A stretch of 63,093 nucleotides of DNA, filler included, from Kipferlia bialata (Eukaryota): the NCBI GenBank assembly GCA_003568945.1. It is 5 parts of 5 records of this genome, joined end to end, with 100 filler letters (N's around TTAATTAATTAA, not from the genome) between each part and the next. Parts side by side here need not be neighbours in the genome. Positions count along the whole stretch, not along the records: positions 32,365 to 48,423 come from BDIP01000639.1; 4 more parts are not named here. One strand, written 5' to 3'. The translations under genes and the position numbers were made by a program. The notes below the pieces were generated by a model. It saw only the letters and a program-made list of their open reading frames with translations. It had not been told where the DNA came from and ran no database searches. Numbering within the stretch: the first letter of the stretch is position 1; each line of letters begins with the position of its first letter. Shown here piece after piece: positions 37,343-53,409 of this stretch.

Positions 37343-40300
37343 TCACACACACACACACACACTTTCTCCCTCTCTCCCCCTCCCCCATCTCCCTTTATTG
37401 TTTCTGGTGTATCCATCCCCTCCCACTCTGTCTCTCTCTATCCCCTCTCTTTCCTAGACTCCATCCTCATTAGACATTCTATCTCTCTTCCTTTCGTATT
37501 TCCTGATATCTCTCCCCCTCTCTCCCCCCTCTCTGACCCAGGCATACAACAGATATGTCCCACTGACCCCTTCTTTCTCTGTCTCTGTTTCTCTGTCTCT
37601 TTCTCTCTATCTATCCCCCCCTTTCTCTCTCTCTGTCTCTCTCACCCCCTCCCCCCCCCCTCTCTGACCCAGGCATACTACAGACATGTGGTGGGGTACA
37701 CACCGGAGGTGAGACCATATATGTATATACATGTATTTACTCCACATACCATGACTGTCTGTGTATATACATATATTTATTGTACTATGTGGGGTACACA
37801 CCGGAGGTGAGACCATATATATGGGTGTGTCTGACTATTCCTACTACTCCTCACCCCCCTCCCCCCCATCCCCCTACACTGTGGTTCACTTGAGGTCAGA
37901 CATATGCACTATATCACCGCCTTGCGGTGCATTCTCCATATACATTAATTATATATATACTCGCCCCCCCCCCTCCCCTCTCTCTATCCTCTCCCCTTTC
38001 TCTGTTACGAGCACTAAAACACTCTAAGAATAGACTGCGTCACCAGAGGAGGAGATAATGGCGCAGTGTTCAAAGCACGATGTACGTATGCACAAATATT
38101 GTACTATTTACTGAGTGTATATAGGTAATATGGTCAATTATATACATCTAACCCCAGGTTCCCTCTTTCGATGATGATTGTACACTATGTAGTTTCTACT
38201 CTCATTATATATGTGAGTGTATTGTCACTTACACACATCTGACCCCAGTCCCCCTCCATCGATGATGGGTGTCTGTACTACCTGTGGAAGGAGGCAGACG
38301 CAGACAAGGACGCATACATACAGGTGTGTGTCATGTCTGAACGCTAGTTGTGTAATGGATTCTTTTTACACATAGAGTGTAGACTATAAATCTAAGGATT
38401 CAGACCCAGACAGGAAGTATACAAACATGTAACAATCCTTCCTGTTATGCCCAGTTTGTAGTGGTAAAGAGTCACCTTGCCAATACTCGCTCTCTGTCTG
38501 ACTATCCAGTCCACCCTTGCCACCATTGTGTCCTTTGCACAGGGTCTGGGTGACCTGTACCCAGTGGACAAGGACGGGAGGAGGCACATGCTGGAGGTGT
38601 GTAATGCATATTGTATAGCAGGAGGGGGGAAAGGTCTTTTCTCACAGGGTAAGAATCCGGAATGGCCAAAACTGGGAATAAGACTGATTGAGGATTCTTT
38701 TCTACATGTGTAAATTCTTTGAGATACCAGAGGGTGAGGACAGTTTTGGGTCTGCATATACACGTTCTTTCCACCATGTGCTCACCTCCCAGGTCTCCCC
38801 CGACACCTGTGTCATGTGCAGGGCCAGTACCATATGCAGTCTGCTAGGTGGGGGATATACATACTTGGTACTTTATATATTCGTGTATACACCATTGATA
38901 CTGTATTGCCCTTACCTTTCTCTCACACACGTTCTCTGTTTCTCCCTTACTATGCTCGTGTTGACTCTGTCTCACCCCCAGCTGCCGACTTTCTCTTTGC
39001 CCTGGACTACCCCCAAGACCAGCCGCACGTGCCAAGGTTTATATATATATATATATATATAAATATGTATATAAATATGAATTCATTCATTTATATACAC
39101 GTATATAGCTGGTTTCAGCCGCCCGGCCCAAGGTATAATCTTATGTATATATACATACATATATATATATATATATATATCTACATGTGTGTGTGTTCAT
39201 ATATTTGTAAATATATGTTTTTATATACCATTGTACTGTTATATATATGATTCCTTACCTCCCAGGTCTGTCCTCCGCACCCTCCCAGGTATATATCTCT
39301 CCCTCTCTCTTTCTGGGTCTCTACCTATATCCCTCTCTGCTATTTGTAACACCAGGTCTGTCTTCCGCACCCTCCTGTCCAGTCCAGCAGACATCCTGGT
39401 GGAGAAGGTCCAGTTCATACTCAGGTACAGTTCTATATATAACATATACTTTATACATATAGAGATAATTGTGTACACATACTTGGTATCCTGGTGGAGA
39501 AGGTCCAGTTCATACTCAGGTACACATGTAGTTATGCTACTCAATTTATTCCATTCATTTTGTGTATGTATACTATACAGGGACTGATTATGTAGATTTC
39601 CCATTATTGAGGAATTATAGGGCCAGTTAATAAGTCTCACCCCTCAGCTACTTCTGCACTATGGGCCAGCTGAAATACACATAGGTGTTCTCTTCTTACG
39701 CAGCATATAGTGTATCTTACTTCAGCTACTTCCACACTATGGGCAGGATGAGGGATGAGGGTCTATTGGATGGATATGTGGTGGTGCACAGGGCAACACT
39801 CAAGAAGGGGAAGGTATAGATATGTATACACAATATATATATATATATATATATATTACGTGAATATGTAGGCATCATGTGTATGCTAAATATTTTGGGT
39901 ATGTGGTGGTGCACAGGGCAACCTTAAAGAAGGGGAAGGTATATATATATAGATATACGATATATTATGTGAATATGTAGGTATCATGTGTATCCTATAA
40001 ATGTTGGGTACGTGGTGGTGCACAGGAAAACACTAAAGAAGGGGAAGGTACACAAGGCCAAGTGGTACTAGCATGTATTTGCATGAATGAGCATGTTCCT
40101 TTATAGAGAACTTCAGTTGTGTATATATATGTAGAAATTCTCCTTGATATGTACATGGTAGCCTCTTCCCCCAGGATAAGAACCCCGTGCCGCTGGTAGT
40201 GCTGATTAAGAGCGTGTCAATATTTTTACTATATTGGGGCTACATACACTCTCTCTGATGAATAGGATAAGAACCCCGTGCCCCTGGTTGTGCTGGACGA

Positions 40301-42513
40301 AGGGGCAGGAATTGAGAAGGTACCAGGATTTGTATTCCGGTGACTGCACTGATACCCCCTGAGAATACCCATGCACACAAATGTAAACATATGCCTACAT
40401 GCTTCTGCCTTGCATCTAGGACGGAGCCGCTGGGGGAGTGGTCATAACATACTATGAATATACACAATATGGTATATACTACTCATATGTATTATTCATA
40501 CATACTTACCTCTAGGATGGTGCCTCAGGTGGTGTTGTCATGACATACTATCATTGCATGTACTGTTTTGTCTATACATTGTATATTGTATCTATTTTGT
40601 ATATTTACATTCTAGGACGGTGCCTCAGGTGGTGTTGTCATGGCAGACTTTGCCAACGAGTGGATAGGGGGAGGGGCTAGGTAACATATACACTCACTCA
40701 CCCACATATATACGATTATTGTATATATGTATCAGGTTATGTGTACTTACTCCTAGGCGCCGGGGATGCATGCAGGAGGAGATCTCATTCCTTCATGTGT
40801 ATGTATATTAGTATATACTTAGTGTATGGTATTCAATTGGCTACTGATTACTAGGAGCCGGGGCTGTGTCCAAGAGGAGATCATTTTCCTATATATATAT
40901 ATATATATATATGTGTGTAAATATGTGATTATTCTATATATATTTTATACTATGCCACTTACTCCTAGGAGTAGGGGCTGTGTGCAGGAGGAGATCCTCT
41001 TCCTGCTGTACCCTGAGCTGTATGCCACTATGCTGGTGTCACCCACTGCAATGGGAGATAGGGAGGCTATTCATGTATCAGGTACATATACTATATATAC
41101 TGTAGTGTAAATATGTATTAGTATATGCTGGTGTCACTGCTATGAGTGATAGAGAGGCCATACACGTGCTCTGTATAACTTGTAAACTATTCTGATATCC
41201 AGGCATGACCCGCACTGGTATTCACTCTGGGTATGGCTGGGACACCAAGTATGTGGGGCCATACAAGGAGCAGACACCACTCAAGACATGGGGAGGTAGG
41301 CCTGTGAGGTGGGTGAATGGTTGAATCCTATTCATGTATTCCATAGGTTTGTGTGATACCTCTGACATGCGACAACACCTGTATGTAACGATTTACCCTA
41401 TTGTAGTTATATGTCAACTCCCAGGGATACACATCTGACTGCCTTTGACGCACTGATGCTGTTCAGCCTCAGTCAGAAGGTAAAGTAATCATCATATATA
41501 GGATAGAAACATACTAGATTCCAGTAACTGGATTCGCATGTATTTTGTCAACTTCGTGAGGCAATTATCATCACCTTTAGAAAGGCCAGCTTCGTCCCAC
41601 CCCGATGCAGAGAGAGATCGACAAGGCCACGATAGCATTCCAGACACCCAGTCTCAAGTGAGTAGATGCGTACCTAGTAGTACTATCCATCTGATAAATA
41701 GAGTAATAATGTATCCCCATCCCCACACTAAGTCAAATACTAAAGATGGACCGGAGACAAGGCTAGCTATTCCTATATGTCTGTCATATGTCTGTCATAT
41801 GTCTATCATATCTTACTCTCAGGAAGTGCATCCTCAGCCCCCCCGAGCCCAAGGGATACACCCTCCCCCCTGATCAACCACTACTTGAATACCCCACCAC
41901 AGTAATCACTGGGAACTGGGGATGTGGGGCATTCGGCGGTAACAGAGGCATGTCATCATTTGCATATGTTTACTCTAATAGACTTCCAATATTAGAATCT
42001 GGACCAATGTCTTTCAGAACCTATTGATACCAGGCGTGAAGCTTCTTGTACAAGTGGTAGCAGCAGCTAAGGCCGGGCTGACCAAGGTATATATCTAAAG
42101 TCATTTACACGCTGTGTATATGGGTACTATAGCATGCTAACTCAGGTTGTGTACTGTCCCTTCAGTGCCACAGAGCTCATGGAGGGCCAGGCACTGCTAG
42201 ACCACTGCCATCAGGGGAAGGTATGTAGGAATGAGTCTATATCATATTGAATCTATATGATTGTGTGTCTCTTACCACATTAGTGAGGCACATGCAAACT
42301 CCCAGTATCAAGTCAATGACCATTGAGTCAGCTGGCACCGTTATCATCCGTGGATATGGTCTATATTGTGATTTTGTATTGTAAAACTCACCCTAGATCA
42401 CTGCCTCCCAGCTGCAAGATGCTATTGAGTCTGCTAGGAGATCCAACAAGCTCTATGGTACAGTGGAGTGTGAGGTGCTATTCCCTGCCGTGCTTGCGGA
42501 GCTTGCGAAGTGA
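37046..42513 (+). CDS. PARG: Poly(ADP-ribose) glycohydrolase (canonical macrodomain-type PARG)
   Basis: ADFANEWIGGGAR|SRGCVQEEILFLLYPEL (GGG-x-QEE catalytic loop), SGYG, AFDAL, REIDKA, TGNWGCGAFGG, KLLVQ..AA. Confidence 0.95.
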
Positions 42514-42985: not shown

Positions 42986-43665
42986 TCACGCACCCTCTCC
43001 CGCTGTCTCCCTCTCCCTCTGTTTCTGTGCCTCTATCCCTCTGAGTCTGGCCAGTTCCTTCTGCTCCATGTCCCTTGCTCTCTTCTGATCCCTGGCCATC
43101 ACCAGGCGGTGCTTGCGGCCCTGAAGATGAGACACACATAAGGAAGAGTATATATACACTCAAGTGTGGCAAGAAAACACTGTGTATACTGGTAATGAAC
43201 TGTATAAACGTAACAGGCTGTAATGTAACTGTACATTCCCACCTGCTTGTGTGCGTCTAGGTTGACCTTTGGCACAACCAACCCACACTCACATGTCACG
43301 GCAGAACTGTCACAGGTCACCCTAGGAATAAGAACAGCCATCGATGTACTACAACACACGTAATAGTACATATGTATTCCATTATACCTTGTTAGGGGAG
43401 GTGCCTGCATCAGGGCAGGAGGTGTGGCCAGGAATGCACGCACTGCCTCCATGCCCCTCTCTCTCTCCCCCTCAGCGATGGAGAGAGACGTGACACACTC
43501 AGAGGGGACCATCCTGGGGTGAGATATATAGGGGGAGTATATATAATATATATATAGATAGAGTGAGAGAGTGAGAGAGGGTGAGAGACGTGACACACTC
43601 AGAGGGCACCATCCTGAGGTTAATAGTCGCATACTAATTAGTGTATATATATAGCGACAGAGGGA

Positions 43666-43697
<32 letters not shown>

Positions 43698-46448
43698 GGC
43701 GACACACTCAGAGGGAACCATCCTTAGGAAAGAAGTATATATGGTATAGTAATATAGAGCATATATATAATATATAGAGGTGTGTGTATGAGTCAGAGGG
43801 GAGGGGGAGGTGACACACTCCGAGGGGACCATCCTGGGGGATAAGATAGTATAACTGAAAGGAGAGAGAAATTGTGTGTGTATGTGTGTGTGGCGACGCA
43901 CTGTGCCTAGAATGTATTGTTCGATACCGACACAATATGAATTGCATATGTATACCTCGCCAGCCTCTTTGCCCACTTCCGCTGGGACTTGGCATATCTC
44001 AGGGTGCCTGGGGTGAGTCTACATCAATACTAATGAGAACACATACATATCATATAGCACCTGCCACCACTGCCTGTAATATCACATATGTATACAGAAT
44101 GTATAGTATACAGTATATAGTATATAGTATACATATTACCTGCCACCACCGCCTGTGTCCCCATCTGAGCCTCCCTGTACCCTGCCTCACTTACAATGGG
44201 GGGTACACCCTCTGCACCCTTAATACTCAGGGATGTGTATGGGACATGGTCTGCCAGTACATCAGACACCATCCTGCACCACAGGGACCGCAGGGTCTGT
44301 CTGTCGCTCTCTCTCTCCCCCTCGGAGAGAGTAGTAAGCCCAGCGGCCAACGCTGCATTGATGTCTGAGTTGCACTGGACCCAGGCGGGGAGGAGCTCCT
44401 AGAGGGTGAGAATCAATATATAGCCAATTATATAGCACAATGAACTATACATATACCATTATTACATATAATGTTATTTACAATGTTATTTATAGTGTTA
44501 AGTGTATGATATACGATGTCTGAGTTGCACTGGACCCAGGCGGGGAGGAGCTCCTACCAAGTAAGATGTCTAATGCAGTGAACACTCGGGTTCATATGTA
44601 ATACACACCATAGTATACATATAGTATACAAATTAGTATACCTTAAGTCCGATGGCCTGTAGGGGACCCAGGCACTGTACATCGGTCCCATAGGTGTCTG
44701 GGGGGTAAGGTAAGTATATGATATGGACAATCATGATTGATGTATATATATATATACATATATACATATATCATAAACATATATATACCAGGCACTGTAA
44801 ATCGGTACCATAGGTGTCTGTGGTAAGGTTAGGGCCCCCCGGAGCATCATGTTCATCCATATCCATATATACAATACATATATATACGTATATACCTAGA
44901 ACACTGAATGCTTCACTGAGCATCTCCCCCTTCAGCATCATGTCCACTCATATACACACACATATATATATATATATACAATACAATATAGTATATACCT
45001 AACACACTGAATGCCTCACTGAGCATCTCCCCCTTCAGCATCATGTCCACTCATATACACACATATATATATATATATATACAATACAAATACAATACAC
45101 ATATATATATATACACATATACCTAACACTCCAAATGCCTCTGCTAGCATCTCCCCCTTCAGCATCATGTCNNNNNNNNAACACTCCAAATGCCTCTGCT
45201 AGCATCTCCCCCTTCAGCATCATGTCCACTCTCAGCTGGGCACGGGGGGGGAGGGCATCACCTGAGAGTGAACAGATACACAATATATGTAGTGATACAT
45301 CTATATACACATACATACCTGCATCTAGCACCAGCACATGCAGTGGGAAGGGGGCTGTGTCCCTGATGCCACGGTGGGTGTCCCTGATATCAGTATAACA
45401 GTCATATACACACACACATATATATATACGTAATGACTATACGTGTATATATATATATATACGTGTCCCTGATGCCACGGTGGGTGTCCCTGTGCTAAGA
45501 AATATAGGATACACAGAGAGACATATACATCATCCCACAAATACCAACAGAGGAATTACTGAGAGAGCTGTGTCACGGTGGGTGTCCCTGGGGTAAGAAT
45601 AGCAATGGTAAAGGATATTGATCATCTTGATGAAATATACTGAGCTGTGCCACGGTGGGTGTCCCTGGGGAAAGGGTATTATATGTATATACATATAAAT
45701 GTATATACATATATATGTATTCAGATATGAATACGTATTTCAATGGTAACGTTACCTAGCCCCCTTTCTCTTGTCCCCACTGAATGACTGGCTGGCCTCA
45801 ACGGAGTCGGCATCGCCTAGTGATTAGAGACAGTTGAGTAATACACATATCTATATATATCTATACATAAGTATTCATACACATACAAATATTCATCTGT
45901 ATACATAGAGAGAGTGACTGACAGGCCTCAACTGAGTCGGAATCGCCTAAATGTGAGAAATACTGTGACATATATGAATGGATGTATTCAGAGATGGAGA
46001 TGACATTGTGTGTCACCTGCACTGATGCTGCATATCATATATTTGTATATATATATATATACATCAATCTCTTCTATGGAGTATGTCCATCAATCTAACC
46101 ATACATACATACAATATAATATAATATATAATATCACTAGTTGCATTGATGAGGTATGCAGCAGAGTTGAATGTGCACGACAACTTAACTGTATTTATAC
46201 TATATTTATATATATGTCCATGTCTGTATTTAAATCTACACATATATACATTGTACCCATACCTGCACTGATGAGGTGTGCATAGTAGAAGGTTTCGTAT
46301 TCTAAGGCAGTATTTCACCCCATTATTAACCTCTCTCTCTCTCTGTGTATATACATATATATATATACTCACCTGCACTGATGAGGTATGCGGCATAGTA
46401 GAATGTGTACAACAACTACATGGTATACATCAATGATGTATATCTATC

Positions 46449-46480
<32 letters not shown>

Positions 46481-47188
46481 GAAAGATACCTGCGCTGATG
46501 AGGTATGCTGCATAGTAGAATGTGCCACCCACAAACAGGGGGACATGGCCTCGGGACCGGATGGCCTGGGGGTGAGAGAGATGTGTATATATACAAACGG
46601 ATGGCCTGGGGGTGAGGGATGAATAAATGATTTCAAAGACTAAACACAGGTTTATAGTCTAGAAAATGGAGTGTATGACCGGATGTCCTGGGGGTGAGGG
46701 ATGTATAAATACGGGCATACAGTCAACGTAGTTAAGCCTCTTCTTACGCCGAGTATAATACTTAGATTAGTACATGTGTACCTTTACCACCGTCTCCACC
46801 TCCTTCTCCCACTGTCTGACAGACCATGTCTCTAGGGAGTATACTATATACCCTATACATATACTAGTATATATATGCATACATGCATATATACCTTGAC
46901 CACAGTCTCCACCTCCTTCTCCCACTGTCTGACAGACCATGTCTCCAGAGAGTGTCTATCCTGGCAGGACAGAATGTCAAACAGGTGGTGGGGGGCCTAG
47001 GGTTACATAAGAGAGAGAGAGAGAGACCGATACTATTATCCATACCCCTGCCCTCTCCTCTGGTGTGGGTGCCGCAGACAGTGTGTCTATCCCACTCCAT
47101 ATCTGCATGGAGTCACAGTTGACAACCTCTAGCCCATAACGCTGGCAGAGCTCAATGCTCAGGGAGGTCTTGCCTACAAGTCAGAGGG

Positions 47189-47222
<34 letters not shown>

Positions 47223-47660
47223 TAATAGGGCTCAATGCTGAGGGAGGTCTTGCCTAGAGGTTAAGGGAAGGGGGGCCCGGGGGGGCAGAGAGAGAGAAAG
47301 GGAGAGAGAGAGTGATAGAGGGGACAGAGCTCAATGAGGGAGGTTTTGCCTTATCAGTGAGAGGGGGGGGGGGGAGACAACAGAACACACCTGTAGTGTA
47401 AATTATATCAGGGTGCCATACACTGAACCCAAGAGATAGAGGACACTGTTGCTGTATGACATGAAGAAGAGTAGGACATGAAGAAGAGTAGGACATTGTT
47501 GCTGTATGCCATGAAGAGTAGGATCAGGGGAGAGAAGGGAGGAGGGGGGGGGCGCGATACAGAAGGTCATTCTCAACAGAACACATGTATACACATACCA
47601 CACACCTGAAGCTGTGGTTCCAAGCAGAAACACCACTGGGTCTTTCCCACTAGTCGCCAT
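42986..47660 (-). CDS. TRIT1: tRNA dimethylallyl(isopentenyl)transferase with C-terminal zinc finger
   Basis: LLGTTASG|KTSLSIEL, EVVNCDSMQIW.GID..SA.P..EE, PHHLFD, PLFVGGTFYY, LQAIGLK|E, TLRYAKSQRKW, C-terminal TCECG...AHKQ|GRKH. Confidence 0.93.
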
Positions 47661-48423: not shown

Positions 48424-48523
48424 NNNNNNNNNNNNNNNNNNNNNNNNNNNNNNNNNNNNNNNNNNNNTTAATTAATTAANNNNNNNNNNNNNNNNNNNNN
48501 NNNNNNNNNNNNNNNNNNNNNNN
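48424..48523. other. Artificial contig spacer
   Basis: N44-TTAATTAATTAA-N44. Confidence 0.98.
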
Positions 48524-49327: not shown

Positions 49328-50821
49328 TCACTCCCCCTTCCTGGCCCCCTTGCCGCACACCCTCCTGTACACACTCCCCAGACCGAAGAAGTAGGAGGTG
49401 TGCAGGTGGTGGAGCAGCATCTCCTCGTGGGGCTGGAGGGTGAGGGGATAGTATATATGGAGTGTATATGGCATAGAGAATATCTGTCCATATGGTATAT
49501 ACATATATATACTAAGGTGCAGAAGCATCTCCTTGTGGGACTGGAGGGTGAGGAGGAGGTGCATGCATGCAGGGAGAACGGCGACATTCCATATTCATGT
49601 ATATAGTACAGTATTCATATAGTATGTACACCCACACACATACACCCACCTTCATCGTATGGGGCTGGGGGGTGAGAGGGGAGAGTATGTGTAGAGTGTA
49701 AAGGGAATAGATAGTATCTGTCCATATGGTATATACATATATATGCAAAGGTGCAGAAGCATCTCATGATGATGGGCTGGTGGGTGAGGAGGAGGTGTAT
49801 GTATACAGGGAGAACAGTGACATATACATTAGTGTTCATGTATGTAGTATTCAGACACATACACACACACATACACTCACCTTCGTAGCCACGCCCCCAA
49901 ACCAGTGTACGTGGTATTGATAGTATTCATACAGTATAGTATACATATACTACACACCCACCTTCATCGTAGCCAGGTGCCCCTGGTCTATCCTGTACAC
50001 CCTGAACCTGGGGGTGCCATTCAGGAAGGACAGCAGAGCCTTGGAGGATGCAGAGGTGTATGTCACACTCTCACTGGCACTCTGCTCACTCTCGCTCTGC
50101 TCCTGTCTACACTCAGAGGTGCTCTCCTCACGCTGCCTCTCCCTTTCTCTCTCCCTGTCACGTTCTCTCTCCAGTGATGTGCGGCGTACTACACCGTGGG
50201 CCTCCAACTCACGCTGTCTCTTCTTGGTGTCCTTGGGGTGAGGGGTATATATAGTGCAGATAATCAATATGTATACTGTCTCTGAAGGTGAGGGAGTAAG
50301 AAAGGAAGGGACAATCATATGGGTGTGATTAGCGCTCTCAAGAAACATAAATGAGTATATTTGAGTATGTGTGAATACTATACCCCGTACCTGCTTAGCC
50401 CTCTTCTTGACCATGGCCTCCCTTACTCATATATATAAACAGGTATATATATATATAGTAACATAATTACTATATAATACTATAGACGTGGATCATCACA
50501 ATACCCTGTACCTGCTTGGCCCTCTTCTTGACCATGGCCTCCCTTACTCATATATATAGACAGGTATATATACATATACCGGTGTGAGTGAGAGAATACA
50601 ATAGTAATAGCAATAAGACAGTACCTGCTTGGCCCTCTTCTTGACCATGGCCTCCCTGCCCTTCTGGTACTTGTACATGCCCAGCCAGCTGTCAACGCCT
50701 GTAGTATGAGAGATGGTATGATTATACATATATGGAGAGAGAGACAACTGTCAACGCCTAGAGGGGTCAGAGAGGGGAGGGAGAGAGAGAGTGTGTGTGT
50801 GTGAGAGAAAATAAAGAAAAA

Positions 50822-50853
<32 letters not shown>

Positions 50854-53358
50854 TAGTACCTGGCAGGGCGAAGCATATGTGGTACAGGTCGCCAGGGGGG
50901 AAGAGGGAGAGGGGGCTGGTCAGGGGGACCTGGGGTAAGTGAGAGATACACACAGAGAGAAAGAGAGAGGACTGGTCACATATACACACACAAGTGTATC
51001 CATACCTGTGACCTCAGCACCATCTGAGCCGCAGTGGCATTGGCCAGCTGGACCTGAGTGTAAGGGAGGGGGGGTGGGGGGTATATAGTATATACACATT
51101 ATGTATATCAAGGAAATATGATATCAAAGGGGGACGACCTGAGTGTAAGGGGAATATATGATGATACATAGATTAGATGGATGGGCATGAGATACGGCGG
51201 GGCTATTGACTCCTATATTGAGGGGAATTATCAGCACACACACACACCTCCTTGACGGCCCTGCTGAATGCCTGTCCGTCCATGTGATCCATGTCAGAGG
51301 AGTGATTGGATACAGGCTGCGTGATGGTGTAGCGACGCATGAGGGGAGGGGGAGGGGGGACAGGGAGATACTGGGGTCAGCATGGGCCGATAGTGGGGAC
51401 GCAGAATTCATGGAGACGTAATAGAATACAGTGTGTTACTCTACGTGGATACATAACACATAGTACCCACCTCGAGGCCTGTGACGCTACTCCTTCTGGC
51501 CAGGTTCCGATGCTCGGCCTCTCTCTCTCTCTCTCGCTGTCTCTCACCCTCACCCTCTGACGCGATCTCTCTCTCCCTCTCTCCCTCAGTCTCTCCCTCT
51601 GACTCTTCGACCTCTTCCTTCACAAGGATGGAGGCACTGTCAATGTAGCCTGGGGATCAACAGAGTATAGAGTACAAACTATCGCATTCAATGTGATACT
51701 TCTACATATTATGTTTCCATTAACCCGTGGTGGTGATAGGGATACACACAGGGAGAAGGGAACTACAATCTACTAGTATCACACCAGATGCCAGTGGCTC
51801 TGTGTCACTGACCTATTGCAGACTAGTACTCATACAGTTGTATCCAGTCACTATGTTTGCATATATATGTGTGTATGTGTCCATACCTGATGCCAGTGGC
51901 TCTGTGTCACTGACCCCTCCCTCCTTGATGGCAGGGAGGGTACTACTGGTGACACGCTTGGGTTTAATGGGCTCGGACTGGGCTACCTTCCTGCCCTGGG
52001 GGTTAGTATACAAGGAAGTGAATATATATGAGTTTGTAACTGTATGAGAACGTGCTCCGTTACATAGGTGTATCATGATATTGACCCCCATACCTTGATG
52101 TGGGATGCCAATCTGTTGAGTATTGGCATATATGAATCTGTATATCTTCTGTTATGCACCAATATATATATGTATGTATATATATATATACATATGTCAT
52201 ACCTTGATGTGTGACGCCAGTCTGTTGAATACAGTTTTGTAAGAAACTATGGATCCCCTGTCATTCACTAATATATATATATCACTATATATATTAATGT
52301 ATCATGCCATTACCTTGATGTGGGATGCCAGTCTGTTGAATGTGTTGCGCAGGGAGAACTTGACAACGCTGAGGGGTGAGGGGGGGGAAGGGGATAGAGT
52401 TACAAGAGACTATATATATACAATGAGTCTAAATACACATACCAAATATATATGTAGCAGTCCACCTACCCCACATGGTTCTCTACATCTCTATAACAAT
52501 ATGCATACATCACCCACCCTGCATGGTTCTCGAGGTCAACGGCCAGGCCAATGGTGTTGTGCACACTCAGTCGACTGGGGGGTGAGGGGAGGGGGGGGGG
52601 TGTGTGTAGGTCTCTCTACATACAGGTATATGCCAATACATAAAGCCACGTATCAACATGAACCTCTAAATACACATGCCCACACCCACCTGAACATGTC
52701 ATACTGGAACACACAGTTTGTGCAGAAGGATGCCATCTCTCTACACAGGGCATAGCTGGCTATGCAGGGGGTGCCTACTCCATAGCACGTGGTGGAGGGG
52801 TACACCTGGGGGGAGAGGGTGGGAGAGATGCATACACTCTATACACTATATGCACAACAACACAACACTACCCCCCATACCTCTCTGAGCAGCAGTGCCA
52901 GGAGGGATGCCACGCCAGACCCCAGGGAGTGGCCAACACAGACCTGGGGGGTGAGACTATTATACATACTACTGTATAATGCCCATGGACTGTGCAGACA
53001 CATACTGAAAGCCAAGAGTGATAGCAAGGTAGTCGATATGCGTAAGTAAGAGTATCTATATACATCTCCCCCTCGTACCAGGTTGTACACGGGGTATCAG
53101 TATCAATATCATAGCAGAACTGCCCTATATACTCATATACATACACCAATATCCGTACCAGGTTGTACCCCGGTACTATCATATAGTAGTATCATATATA
53201 ATTATACATATATATCCATCTCCCCCGTACCAGGTTGTACCCGGGGTATGCCTCCAGTAGTGCCCCCAGGTATGGCAACAGGTCATAGTACAGCATGGAC
53301 GCAGAGGCCAGCATGCCTGGGTTACGGTATAAGGTAGACACAGGAAATGTACTAGCAG

Positions 53359-53409
<51 letters not shown>

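What the first reader, a model, noticed from the sequence alone, without database searches (positions are those of the whole stretch)
39771..41004. Echo copies differ from the live exon mainly at synonymous positions (PARG)
Seen: live GGA TAT..GCA ACA CTC AAG AAG GGG AAG|GT versus echoes GGG TAT..GCA ACC TTA AAG.. and GGG TAC..AAA ACA CTA AAG... The live catalytic exon AGT AGG GGC TGT GTG CAG GAG GAG ATC CTC compares with echo AGC CGG GGC TGT GTC CAA GAG GAG ATC ATT. Dead intronic DNA should mutate at random codon positions. Inference: the echoes were under protein-level selection, so they are snapshots of former functional exon versions or divergent alleles, or they are still spliced in as alternative exon ends.
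Basis: seen in the sequence. Interest (0 to 1): 0.85.

Follow-up and report, generated by a model that had tools for sequence, protein, structure and literature searches.

The report
Introns archive former working exon alleles
In the protist Kipferlia bialata many introns hold short, spliced-out copies of the neighbouring exon's edge that differ from it mostly at silent positions, likely because recombination moved the working exon ends of other, very different alleles into the intron, so one genome would store a record of its population's diversity.

Summary
Confirmed, and wider than reported. The gene is Kipferlia bialata PARG. Its 7 echoes here differ from the live exons at codon positions 13/3/23, dN/dS 0.15. 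Across 9 echo-rich genes, 125 echoes give 91/43/206 and dN/dS 0.19 (0.15-0.25). The data still fall below that. Echoes are real DNA and the one RNA-like contig splices them out. Changes private to the nearest echo are as silent-biased (23:7) as the live exon's own (23:10), which dead snapshots of one lineage did not reproduce. Best reading (0.6): echoes are exon edges of divergent alleles, captured by unequal or imprecise recombination; this needs about 20-25% synonymous diversity. Against it: no donor allele was seen; PARG shows no variant in the DNA run and two lipase copies have the same protein. The architecture matches chicken 'exon stuttering' (PMC12954441); the scan noted a similar layout in a sea urchin gene. 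The codon signature was not found in my literature searches.

The parts
37046..42513 (+). PARG gene, 20 coding exons, 483 aa (P0001)
   Evidence: Pfam PARG_cat_C and PARG_cat_N; 14 canonical or shiftable joints in X2 contig 9
39726..39813 (+). live exon (residues 175-204); source of two donor echoes and one acceptor echo
39896..39938 (+). donor echo 1 (43 nt, GT kept); same peptide as live
40005..40047 (+). donor echo 2 (43 nt, GT kept, same far boundary as echo 1); A198K
39648..39673 (+). acceptor echo of exon 39726; differences mostly replacements (exception)
40175..40204 (+). acceptor echo of exon 40266; 2 differences, both silent
40266..40319 (+). live exon (residues 205-222)
40420..40456 (+). 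outer acceptor echo of exon 40616; 6 of 10 differences at position 3
40516..40549 (+). inner acceptor echo of exon 40616
40616..40680 (+). live exon (DFAN/GGG motif); both upstream decoy acceptors skipped
   Evidence: joint 40317>40614 (cut +2)
40757..40792 (+). outer acceptor echo of the catalytic exon; 5 silent changes plus S245R, V249M, L254S
40855..40890 (+). inner acceptor echo of the catalytic exon; 5 silent changes plus L254I
40969..41081 (+). live catalytic exon (GCVQEEI)
41115..41172 (+). older donor echo with a 4-nt gap and lost GT; below the score cut, not in the counts; 7 silent third-position changes in 11 codons
16258..20038 (+). gene C (my model): 22 echoes in 7 introns, including a two-unit block duplicated as a whole (18207-18669)
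20620..23567 (-). gene D (my model): 16 echoes in 7 introns
23742..27507 (+). P-loop kinase-like gene E (my model): 12 echoes in 9 introns
28144..31294 (+). Rer1 gene (my model): 11 echoes in 6 introns, five at one donor
43243..47660 (-). tRNA isopentenyltransferase-like gene (my model, two pieces): 17 echoes in 11 introns
49328..55948 (-). class 3 lipase gene (database model P0002, edited): 15 echoes in 24 introns
59235..62939 (+). FG-GAP repeat gene (my model): 14 echoes in 10 introns
1733..5382 (-). gene I (my model): 6 short echoes in 10 introns, 1 silent and 5 replacement differences (no silent excess)

Best explanation
The echoes are spliced-out copies of exon edges with their splice site, and they are likely the once-working exon ends of other, strongly diverged alleles of the same gene, moved into the intron by unequal or imprecise recombination. 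Shown: units of about 100 nt (30 nt exon edge plus 70 nt intron edge) sit head to tail beside the live site; silent sites and intron spacers are diverged about 20-25% while replacement sites are diverged 2-3% in inner copies; the outermost copy has decayed more. Inferred: (1) a first unit arises by a rare tandem duplication or failed repair across a splice junction, and survives because the reading frame is untouched; (2) where alleles differ too much in introns to pair, exchange starts in exon sequence, so the live exon of one haplotype pairs with the echo of another; a crossover adds a unit and a conversion overwrites one, each time placing a formerly selected exon edge in the intron; (3) after capture the copy decays neutrally; (4) the spliceosome takes the site attached to a whole exon and ignores equally strong decoys, probably by exon definition.
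For: dN/dS 0.19 against 0.79-0.85 (echo only) and 0.42-0.52 (dead echo, live evolving; lowest run 0.34); 2 stops against 7-10 expected. Mismatch at 4-fold sites 81/392, at 0-fold sites 64/1528, and the gap holds within each base. Triplets in 29 of 29 multi-echo families: live-private 23 silent/10 replacement, echo-1-private 23/7, echo-2 24/31. Four ladder models never gave this in 200 runs each; a hand-fitted allele star did in 17-19%. pS is flat with rank (0.22, 0.26, 0.25) while pN rises (0.041, 0.068, 0.089); inner copies dN/dS 0.13, outermost 0.22, single 0.24. In the 11 of 45 spacer pairs that align above background, spacers differ at 18% of columns, attached exon parts at pS 0.27, pN 0.015. 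23 of 47 neighbouring echoes share their length within 2 nt (null mean 6-7, maximum 18), as homologous unequal exchange predicts. GT kept in 59 of 68 and AG in 52 of 57. Precedent: synonymous diversity 0.20 and replacement/synonymous ratio 0.12 in Schizophyllum (PMC4576712), crossovers enriched in exons there (PMC4209137); metamonads lack NHEJ and fornicates use Dmc1 without Rad51A (PMC8516963).
Against: No donor allele was seen. Run X1 lists no other letters over PARG (contigs drop rare variants). The two database copies of the lipase have identical protein over 715 aligned residues. The metagenome scan found no relative. The needed diversity is at the highest level reported for a eukaryote in the paper read. 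The star model's parameters were fitted to the same counts. Replacements are only slightly more conservative than neutral (BLOSUM62 -0.13 +/- 0.18 against -0.41), and V249M and L254S in the outer catalytic echo occur in 0 of 149 PARG relatives. Gene I shows no silent excess (1 silent, 5 replacement). Seven of nine gene models are mine and lack RNA support. 34 of 45 spacer pairs do not align above the strict background.
Confidence: 0.6

Rival explanations
1. The donors were paralogs or homeologs (segmental copies, hybrid or polyploid ancestry), since lost or homogenised, rather than alleles of one population. The capture step would be the same.
For: Same codon signature expected; the lipase exists twice in the database; some echoes are very diverged (pS 0.5-0.8).
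Against: Only one protein matched the catalytic exon (11 candidates, weak); next PARG relative is 42% identical and from Dysnectes (that library hides relatives above 50% identity). Echoes occur in every gene modelled, and three copies each have private silent changes, which needs more than two lineages.
Confidence: 0.14
2. Echoes are themselves translated in some transcripts (alternative exon ends or mini-exons) and so are under selection now.
For: Echo splice sites score as well as the live one in 18 of 39 donors and 19 of 39 acceptors; the nearest echo shows no more replacements than the live exon (7 against 10). Database models of the lipase include a 15-nt echo-derived mini-exon (a prediction).
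Against: Echoes are partial and lack a second site; offsets are evenly spread over frames (40/40/45) and use of the nearest decoy keeps frame without a stop in only 11 of 78 families; the one RNA-like contig skips every PARG decoy whose joint was listed and has 0 other letters. Retention of GT/AG is about what 5% decay predicts (my estimate).
Confidence: 0.08
3. Ordinary dead tandem copies from the same chromosome, or copies refreshed by conversion from the live exon in cis, with the excess due to silent evolution of the live exon (possibly faster than intron mutation).
For: Needs no unusual diversity; explains part of the bias (null about 0.5); outermost and single echoes are nearer this value (0.22-0.24).
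Against: Observed interval 0.15-0.25 excludes 0.42-0.52; ladders with a 5- or 10-fold faster live silent rate give 3-6 silent changes private to echo 1 against 23; intron flanks diverge more, not less, than the exon part. A ladder in random order was not simulated; by reasoning it would not give the 7 against 31 asymmetry in replacements.
Confidence: 0.08
4. Echoes are silent donor cassettes that often convert the live exon and are therefore selected indirectly, as in gene-conversion diversification systems (recalled: chicken Ig pseudogenes, Borrelia vls).
For: Would give silent-biased private changes in echoes and a star shape.
Against: The live exon should then be a mosaic of its echoes with few private changes; it has as many as they do (23 silent). 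Single-echo families should sit at 0.5 and are at 0.24. Housekeeping genes such as Rer1 are affected.
Confidence: 0.05
5. Assembly artefact that placed allelic contigs in tandem.
For: The species is reported diploid by k-mers (PMC5874029); a few echoes abut N gaps (26420-26465, 30683-30760, 45172-45179).
Against: A separately assembled contig covers 39864-40879 without difference and long contigs have similar depth, 295-433; most echoes have no gap nearby; far ends join mid-exon to intron DNA.
Confidence: 0.02

Closest known systems
Exon stuttering on chicken dot chromosomes (Hron et al. 2026, PMC12954441; abstract, passages and part 1 of 2 of section 7 read; supplements not read)
   Same: Partial copies of the adjacent exon edge with donor or acceptor site, in tandem in the neighbouring intron; median 36 bp there, 30 nt here; over 90% start at the exon border; coding region intact; authors suggest inaccurate strand invasion and conversion as one mechanism.
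   Different: There 190 of 5,572 dot-chromosome introns, GC-rich, spans of kilobases, up to 44 copies; here 61 of 103 introns in the genes chosen, AT-rich spacers (29% GC), 1-5 copies about 100 nt apart, in a protist. The words 'synonymous' and 'purifying' do not occur in that paper's main text, so no codon signature is reported there. Length polymorphism is shown there and untested here.
Intron gain by tandem genomic duplication (review PMC3443670; passages read)
   Same: Local tandem duplication of sequence bearing splice signals, removed by splicing.
   Different: That creates a new intron from exon sequence around AGGT; here existing introns grow, and the copies differ like alleles, not like a fresh duplicate.
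Recombination in hyperpolymorphic Schizophyllum commune (PMC4209137, PMC4576712; passages read)
   Same: Synonymous diversity 0.20, replacement/synonymous ratio 0.12, crossovers enriched in exons: the regime the best model needs.
   Different: Measured from population genomes; no intronic exon-edge copies in the passages seen. For Kipferlia the diversity is only inferred.
Tandem exon duplication with mutually exclusive splicing (recalled, no call)
   Same: Neighbouring homologous exon sequence with low dN/dS.
   Different: Those are whole exons with both splice sites and appear in mRNA; echoes are partial, one-sided and skipped.

Membership tests
Exon stuttering (PMC12954441) | Partial copies of an exon in the adjacent intron, above a control | tested here: met
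   125 against 1.2 expected from non-adjacent introns
Exon stuttering (PMC12954441) | Copies anchored at the exon border with the splice site | tested here: met
   Search was border-anchored; mid-exon anchors hit 1 of 52 introns; GT 59/68, AG 52/57 kept
Exon stuttering (PMC12954441) | Repetitive introns of imperfect tandem units, coding region intact | tested here: met
   Spacing quartiles 88/103/122 nt; introns with echoes median 318 nt, without 132; open frames
Exon stuttering (PMC12954441) | Large intron length variation within the species | not testable with these tools
   Only two runs of one sample listed; no variant over PARG
Exon stuttering (PMC12954441) | Association with GC-rich dot chromosomes | tested here: not met
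   Protist; window bins 35-53% GC, spacers 29% GC. So it works like exon stuttering but is not the avian case.
Mutually exclusive / alternative tandem exons | Whole exon with both splice sites | tested here: not met
   Echo/exon length ratio median 0.41, 95th percentile 0.60
Mutually exclusive / alternative tandem exons | Inclusion in mRNA | tested here: inconclusive
   One contig at depth 15 skips them; contigs drop rare forms
Dead (pseudogene-like) copy of an evolving exon | dN/dS to the live copy about 0.5 and neutral private changes | tested here: not met
   0.19 (0.15-0.25); inner-private changes 28 silent of 46 against 28% expected, p 3e-6
Intron gain by tandem duplication | New intron bounded by the duplicated AGGT | tested here: not met
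   In PARG the RNA-like contig uses the outer original sites; echoes lie inside the intron
Captured alleles of a hyperdiverse population | Echo variants present as alleles in live exons of other haplotypes | not testable with these tools
   No second isolate; no variant in X1 over PARG

The most novel reading that the evidence does not exclude
Kipferlia introns are an ordered archive of former alleles: recombination between hyperdiverse haplotypes, confined to exons, keeps pushing working exon edges into introns, newest next to the exon. One near-homozygous genome would then reveal population diversity of about 0.2-0.25 and cryptic genetic exchange in a free-living fornicate, show a main route of intron growth, and supply thousands of natural decoy splice sites that a reduced spliceosome ignores.
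Probability: 0.5. Interest if true: 0.87.

Novelty: new variant of a known kind. Interest (0 to 1): 0.74.

Why it matters
The layout was described in 2026 as a bird-specific instability of unknown mechanism. Here it is dense in a distant protist and carries a codon signature that separates mechanisms: same-chromosome slippage cannot give it, exchange between diverged working copies can. The same triplet test can be run on the chicken data. If the allele reading holds, diversity and recombination could be read from a single genome of an organism with no population data, and splice-site choice among near-equal tandem sites becomes testable at scale in a species with 87 of 174 surveyed spliceosomal proteins (PMC6679479, passages). 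It also warns that gene predictors turn echoes into false mini-exons.

Tried and rejected
No whole genome is held, so nothing genome-wide was tested. No holder on record as RNA was listed; X2 is RNA by the tool's guess. RNA support exists for PARG only. Metagenome scan with PARG: 19 pattern matches, none confirmed. The second lipase entry looked like a candidate allele but has the same protein. The X2 joint 40471>40719 (GT..TA, 23 letters on one side, loose ends on both) was set aside as a probable match of another AT-rich transcript. My gene finder inserted echo mini-exons, also in PARG where RNA excludes them; I removed them by hand and kept models only where the frame stayed open; 6 of 11 exon pieces matched a fitting Pfam family, 5 matched none. 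Position along the echo showed no gradient of dN/dS (0.12-0.19 up to 36 nt). Amino-acid tolerance in PARG relatives was mixed: A198K in 19 of 149, S245R 5, G273S 8, S226A 7, M231I 2, V249M, L254I and L254S 0. Base-composition bias does not explain the pattern. Literature searches listed no paper on this in Kipferlia and none on a silent-site bias in such copies; the library lacks most subscription papers, and I read passages, not whole texts.
Full report
Identity. The catalytic exon at 40969-41081 matches one database protein at 100%, PARG of Kipferlia bialata, 483 aa; Pfam agrees. The protein maps onto 20 exons at 37046-42510 (one exon corrected to 40616-40680). No whole genome is held.

The observation. 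Seven echoes lie in 39.8-41.0 kb: 13/3/23 differences at codon positions 1/2/3, pS 0.40, pN 0.079, dN/dS 0.15. A contig of run X2 (RNA by the tool's guess, depth 15, 0 other letters) uses the outermost sites and skips the decoys at 39519, 39648, 40420, 40516, 40757 and 40855; the joint over 39813-40266 was not listed. A contig of DNA run X1 covers 39864-40879 without difference. X1 may be the window's source.

It is window-wide. I modelled 9 genes (10 pieces, 103 introns, 206 splice-site sides), chosen because self-comparison showed repeats (output cut in the middle). Genes at about 6.7-16 kb, where one search showed no hit, and stretches at 32-37 and 56-59 kb were left out, so prevalence is biased upward. 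PARG has RNA support, the lipase a database model that I edited, and seven models are mine with open frames. A border-anchored, nucleotide-only search found 125 echoes in 78 families and 61 of 103 introns, against 1.2 expected. Median length is 30 nt, spacing 103 nt. GT is kept in 59 of 68 and AG in 52 of 57.

The right null. A dead copy compared with a live exon should give about 0.5, as the live copy goes on changing at silent sites. Simulated with the same detector this gave 0.42-0.52 (lowest 0.34) and 7-9 stops; echo-only decay gave 0.79-0.85 (60 runs each). Observed: 91/43/206, dN/dS 0.19 (bootstrap 0.15-0.25), 2 stops. PARG plus lipase alone give 0.23; shifted frames 2.9 and 1.1; 48 of 60 differing nearest echoes have pN under half of pS. 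For the 7 echoes of the finding P is 0.001-0.003. Exceptions: gene I (1 silent, 5 replacement) and the echo at 39648.

Whose changes are they? In the 29 families with two or more echoes, changes private to the live exon are 23 silent/10 replacement, to echo 1 23/7, to echo 2 24/31. If echoes were snapshots that died at birth, echo 1's own changes would be about 72% replacements. Four such ladders, two with a 5- or 10-fold faster live silent rate, never matched in 200 runs; a star of three working versions 0.12-0.13 from a common ancestor, with 0-0.005 and 0.035-0.04 later decay, matched the whole pattern (parameters fitted by hand). pS hardly changes with rank, pN doubles. Where neighbouring spacers align (11 of 45), they differ at 18% of columns plus gaps, the attached exon parts at pS 0.27 and pN 0.015. 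Even echoes identical in the exon part often have flanks near background. Units thus look like allelic versions of 'exon edge plus intron edge'.

Mechanism. 23 of 47 neighbouring echoes have the same length within 2 nt (null 6-7), and one two-unit block is duplicated whole. This points to homologous unequal exchange once a first unit exists (inference). Pairing of one haplotype's live exon with another's echo yields a new inner unit whose junction end was live until then; the outermost unit is the oldest, and it is the most decayed. How the first unit forms is open; dinucleotide repeats lie within 20 nt of the far end in 70 of 125 echoes against 35% background, which hints at slippage or microhomology joining. 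Metamonads lack NHEJ and fornicates lack Rad51A and have two Dmc1 (PMC8516963, passages); that Dmc1 tolerates mismatches is recalled. The implied synonymous diversity of about 0.2-0.25 with a ratio near 0.1 matches Schizophyllum (PMC4576712), where crossovers favour exons (PMC4209137). Decoy sites score as high as live ones in about half the families yet are skipped in PARG; exon definition, or the preference for the site next to a full exon seen in duplicated-site experiments (Reed and Maniatis 1986, recalled), would explain it. This step is untested.

Against. No donor was seen: no variant over PARG in X1, identical protein in the two lipase entries, no metagenome relative. The species is reported diploid (PMC5874029, passages and section 7), so the strain would have to be inbred or homogenised here. 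Replacements are barely more conservative than neutral, and two in the outer catalytic echo are absent from 149 relatives, which fits later decay but not a pure allele. RNA evidence is one contig.

Known kin. The layout is that of 'exon stuttering' in chicken dot chromosomes (PMC12954441): edge copies of median 36 bp with the splice site. That paper reports 3.4% of dot introns, GC-rich context and length polymorphism, and its main text lacks the words synonymous and purifying; its supplements were not read and may bear on this. The Kipferlia genome paper has no passage on such copies among those shown for my terms. An earlier scan note describes duplicated junctions in one sea urchin gene (not tested by me). 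My searches listed no report of the silent-site signature.

Verdict. New variant of a known kind; interest 0.74.

Noticed in passing
window 49664-49650 (minus): An acceptor echo and a donor echo overlap to form a 15-nt mini-exon that both database lipase models include; likely a prediction artefact, RNA not checked.
   Followed up: partly
P0002 / P0003: The lipase is annotated twice, on contigs of different length, with identical protein apart from the predicted start; P0002 starts inside an echo (55743), P0003 fits the window's upstream exon.
   Followed up: partly
window 5317-16096: Several genes with short introns show no echo in the self-comparison, so echo density differs strongly between genes or contigs.
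   Followed up: no
window 45123-45226: Two identical 47-nt copies flank an 8-N gap; probably a scaffolding overlap, treated as one exon end.
   Followed up: partly
window 55826 (minus): A very diverged donor echo of the lipase exon ending 55915 keeps 9 of 12 residues with many codon changes; below the score cut.
   Followed up: partly
window 1171-1366: Three imperfect tandem copies of about 68 nt in apparently non-coding DNA (82-85% alike), perhaps purely non-coding stuttering.
   Followed up: no
window 41948: The database PARG model implies a GC donor; the RNA-like contig has a joint here (41945>42032).
   Followed up: no
window 32365-36400: A 4-kb stretch without the usual intron signals or microsatellites; may be mobile-element derived.
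   Followed up: no
window 16141-16152, 32309-32320, 48468-48479, 58405-58416: Stop-codon linkers between N runs: the window joins five separate contigs.
   Followed up: yes
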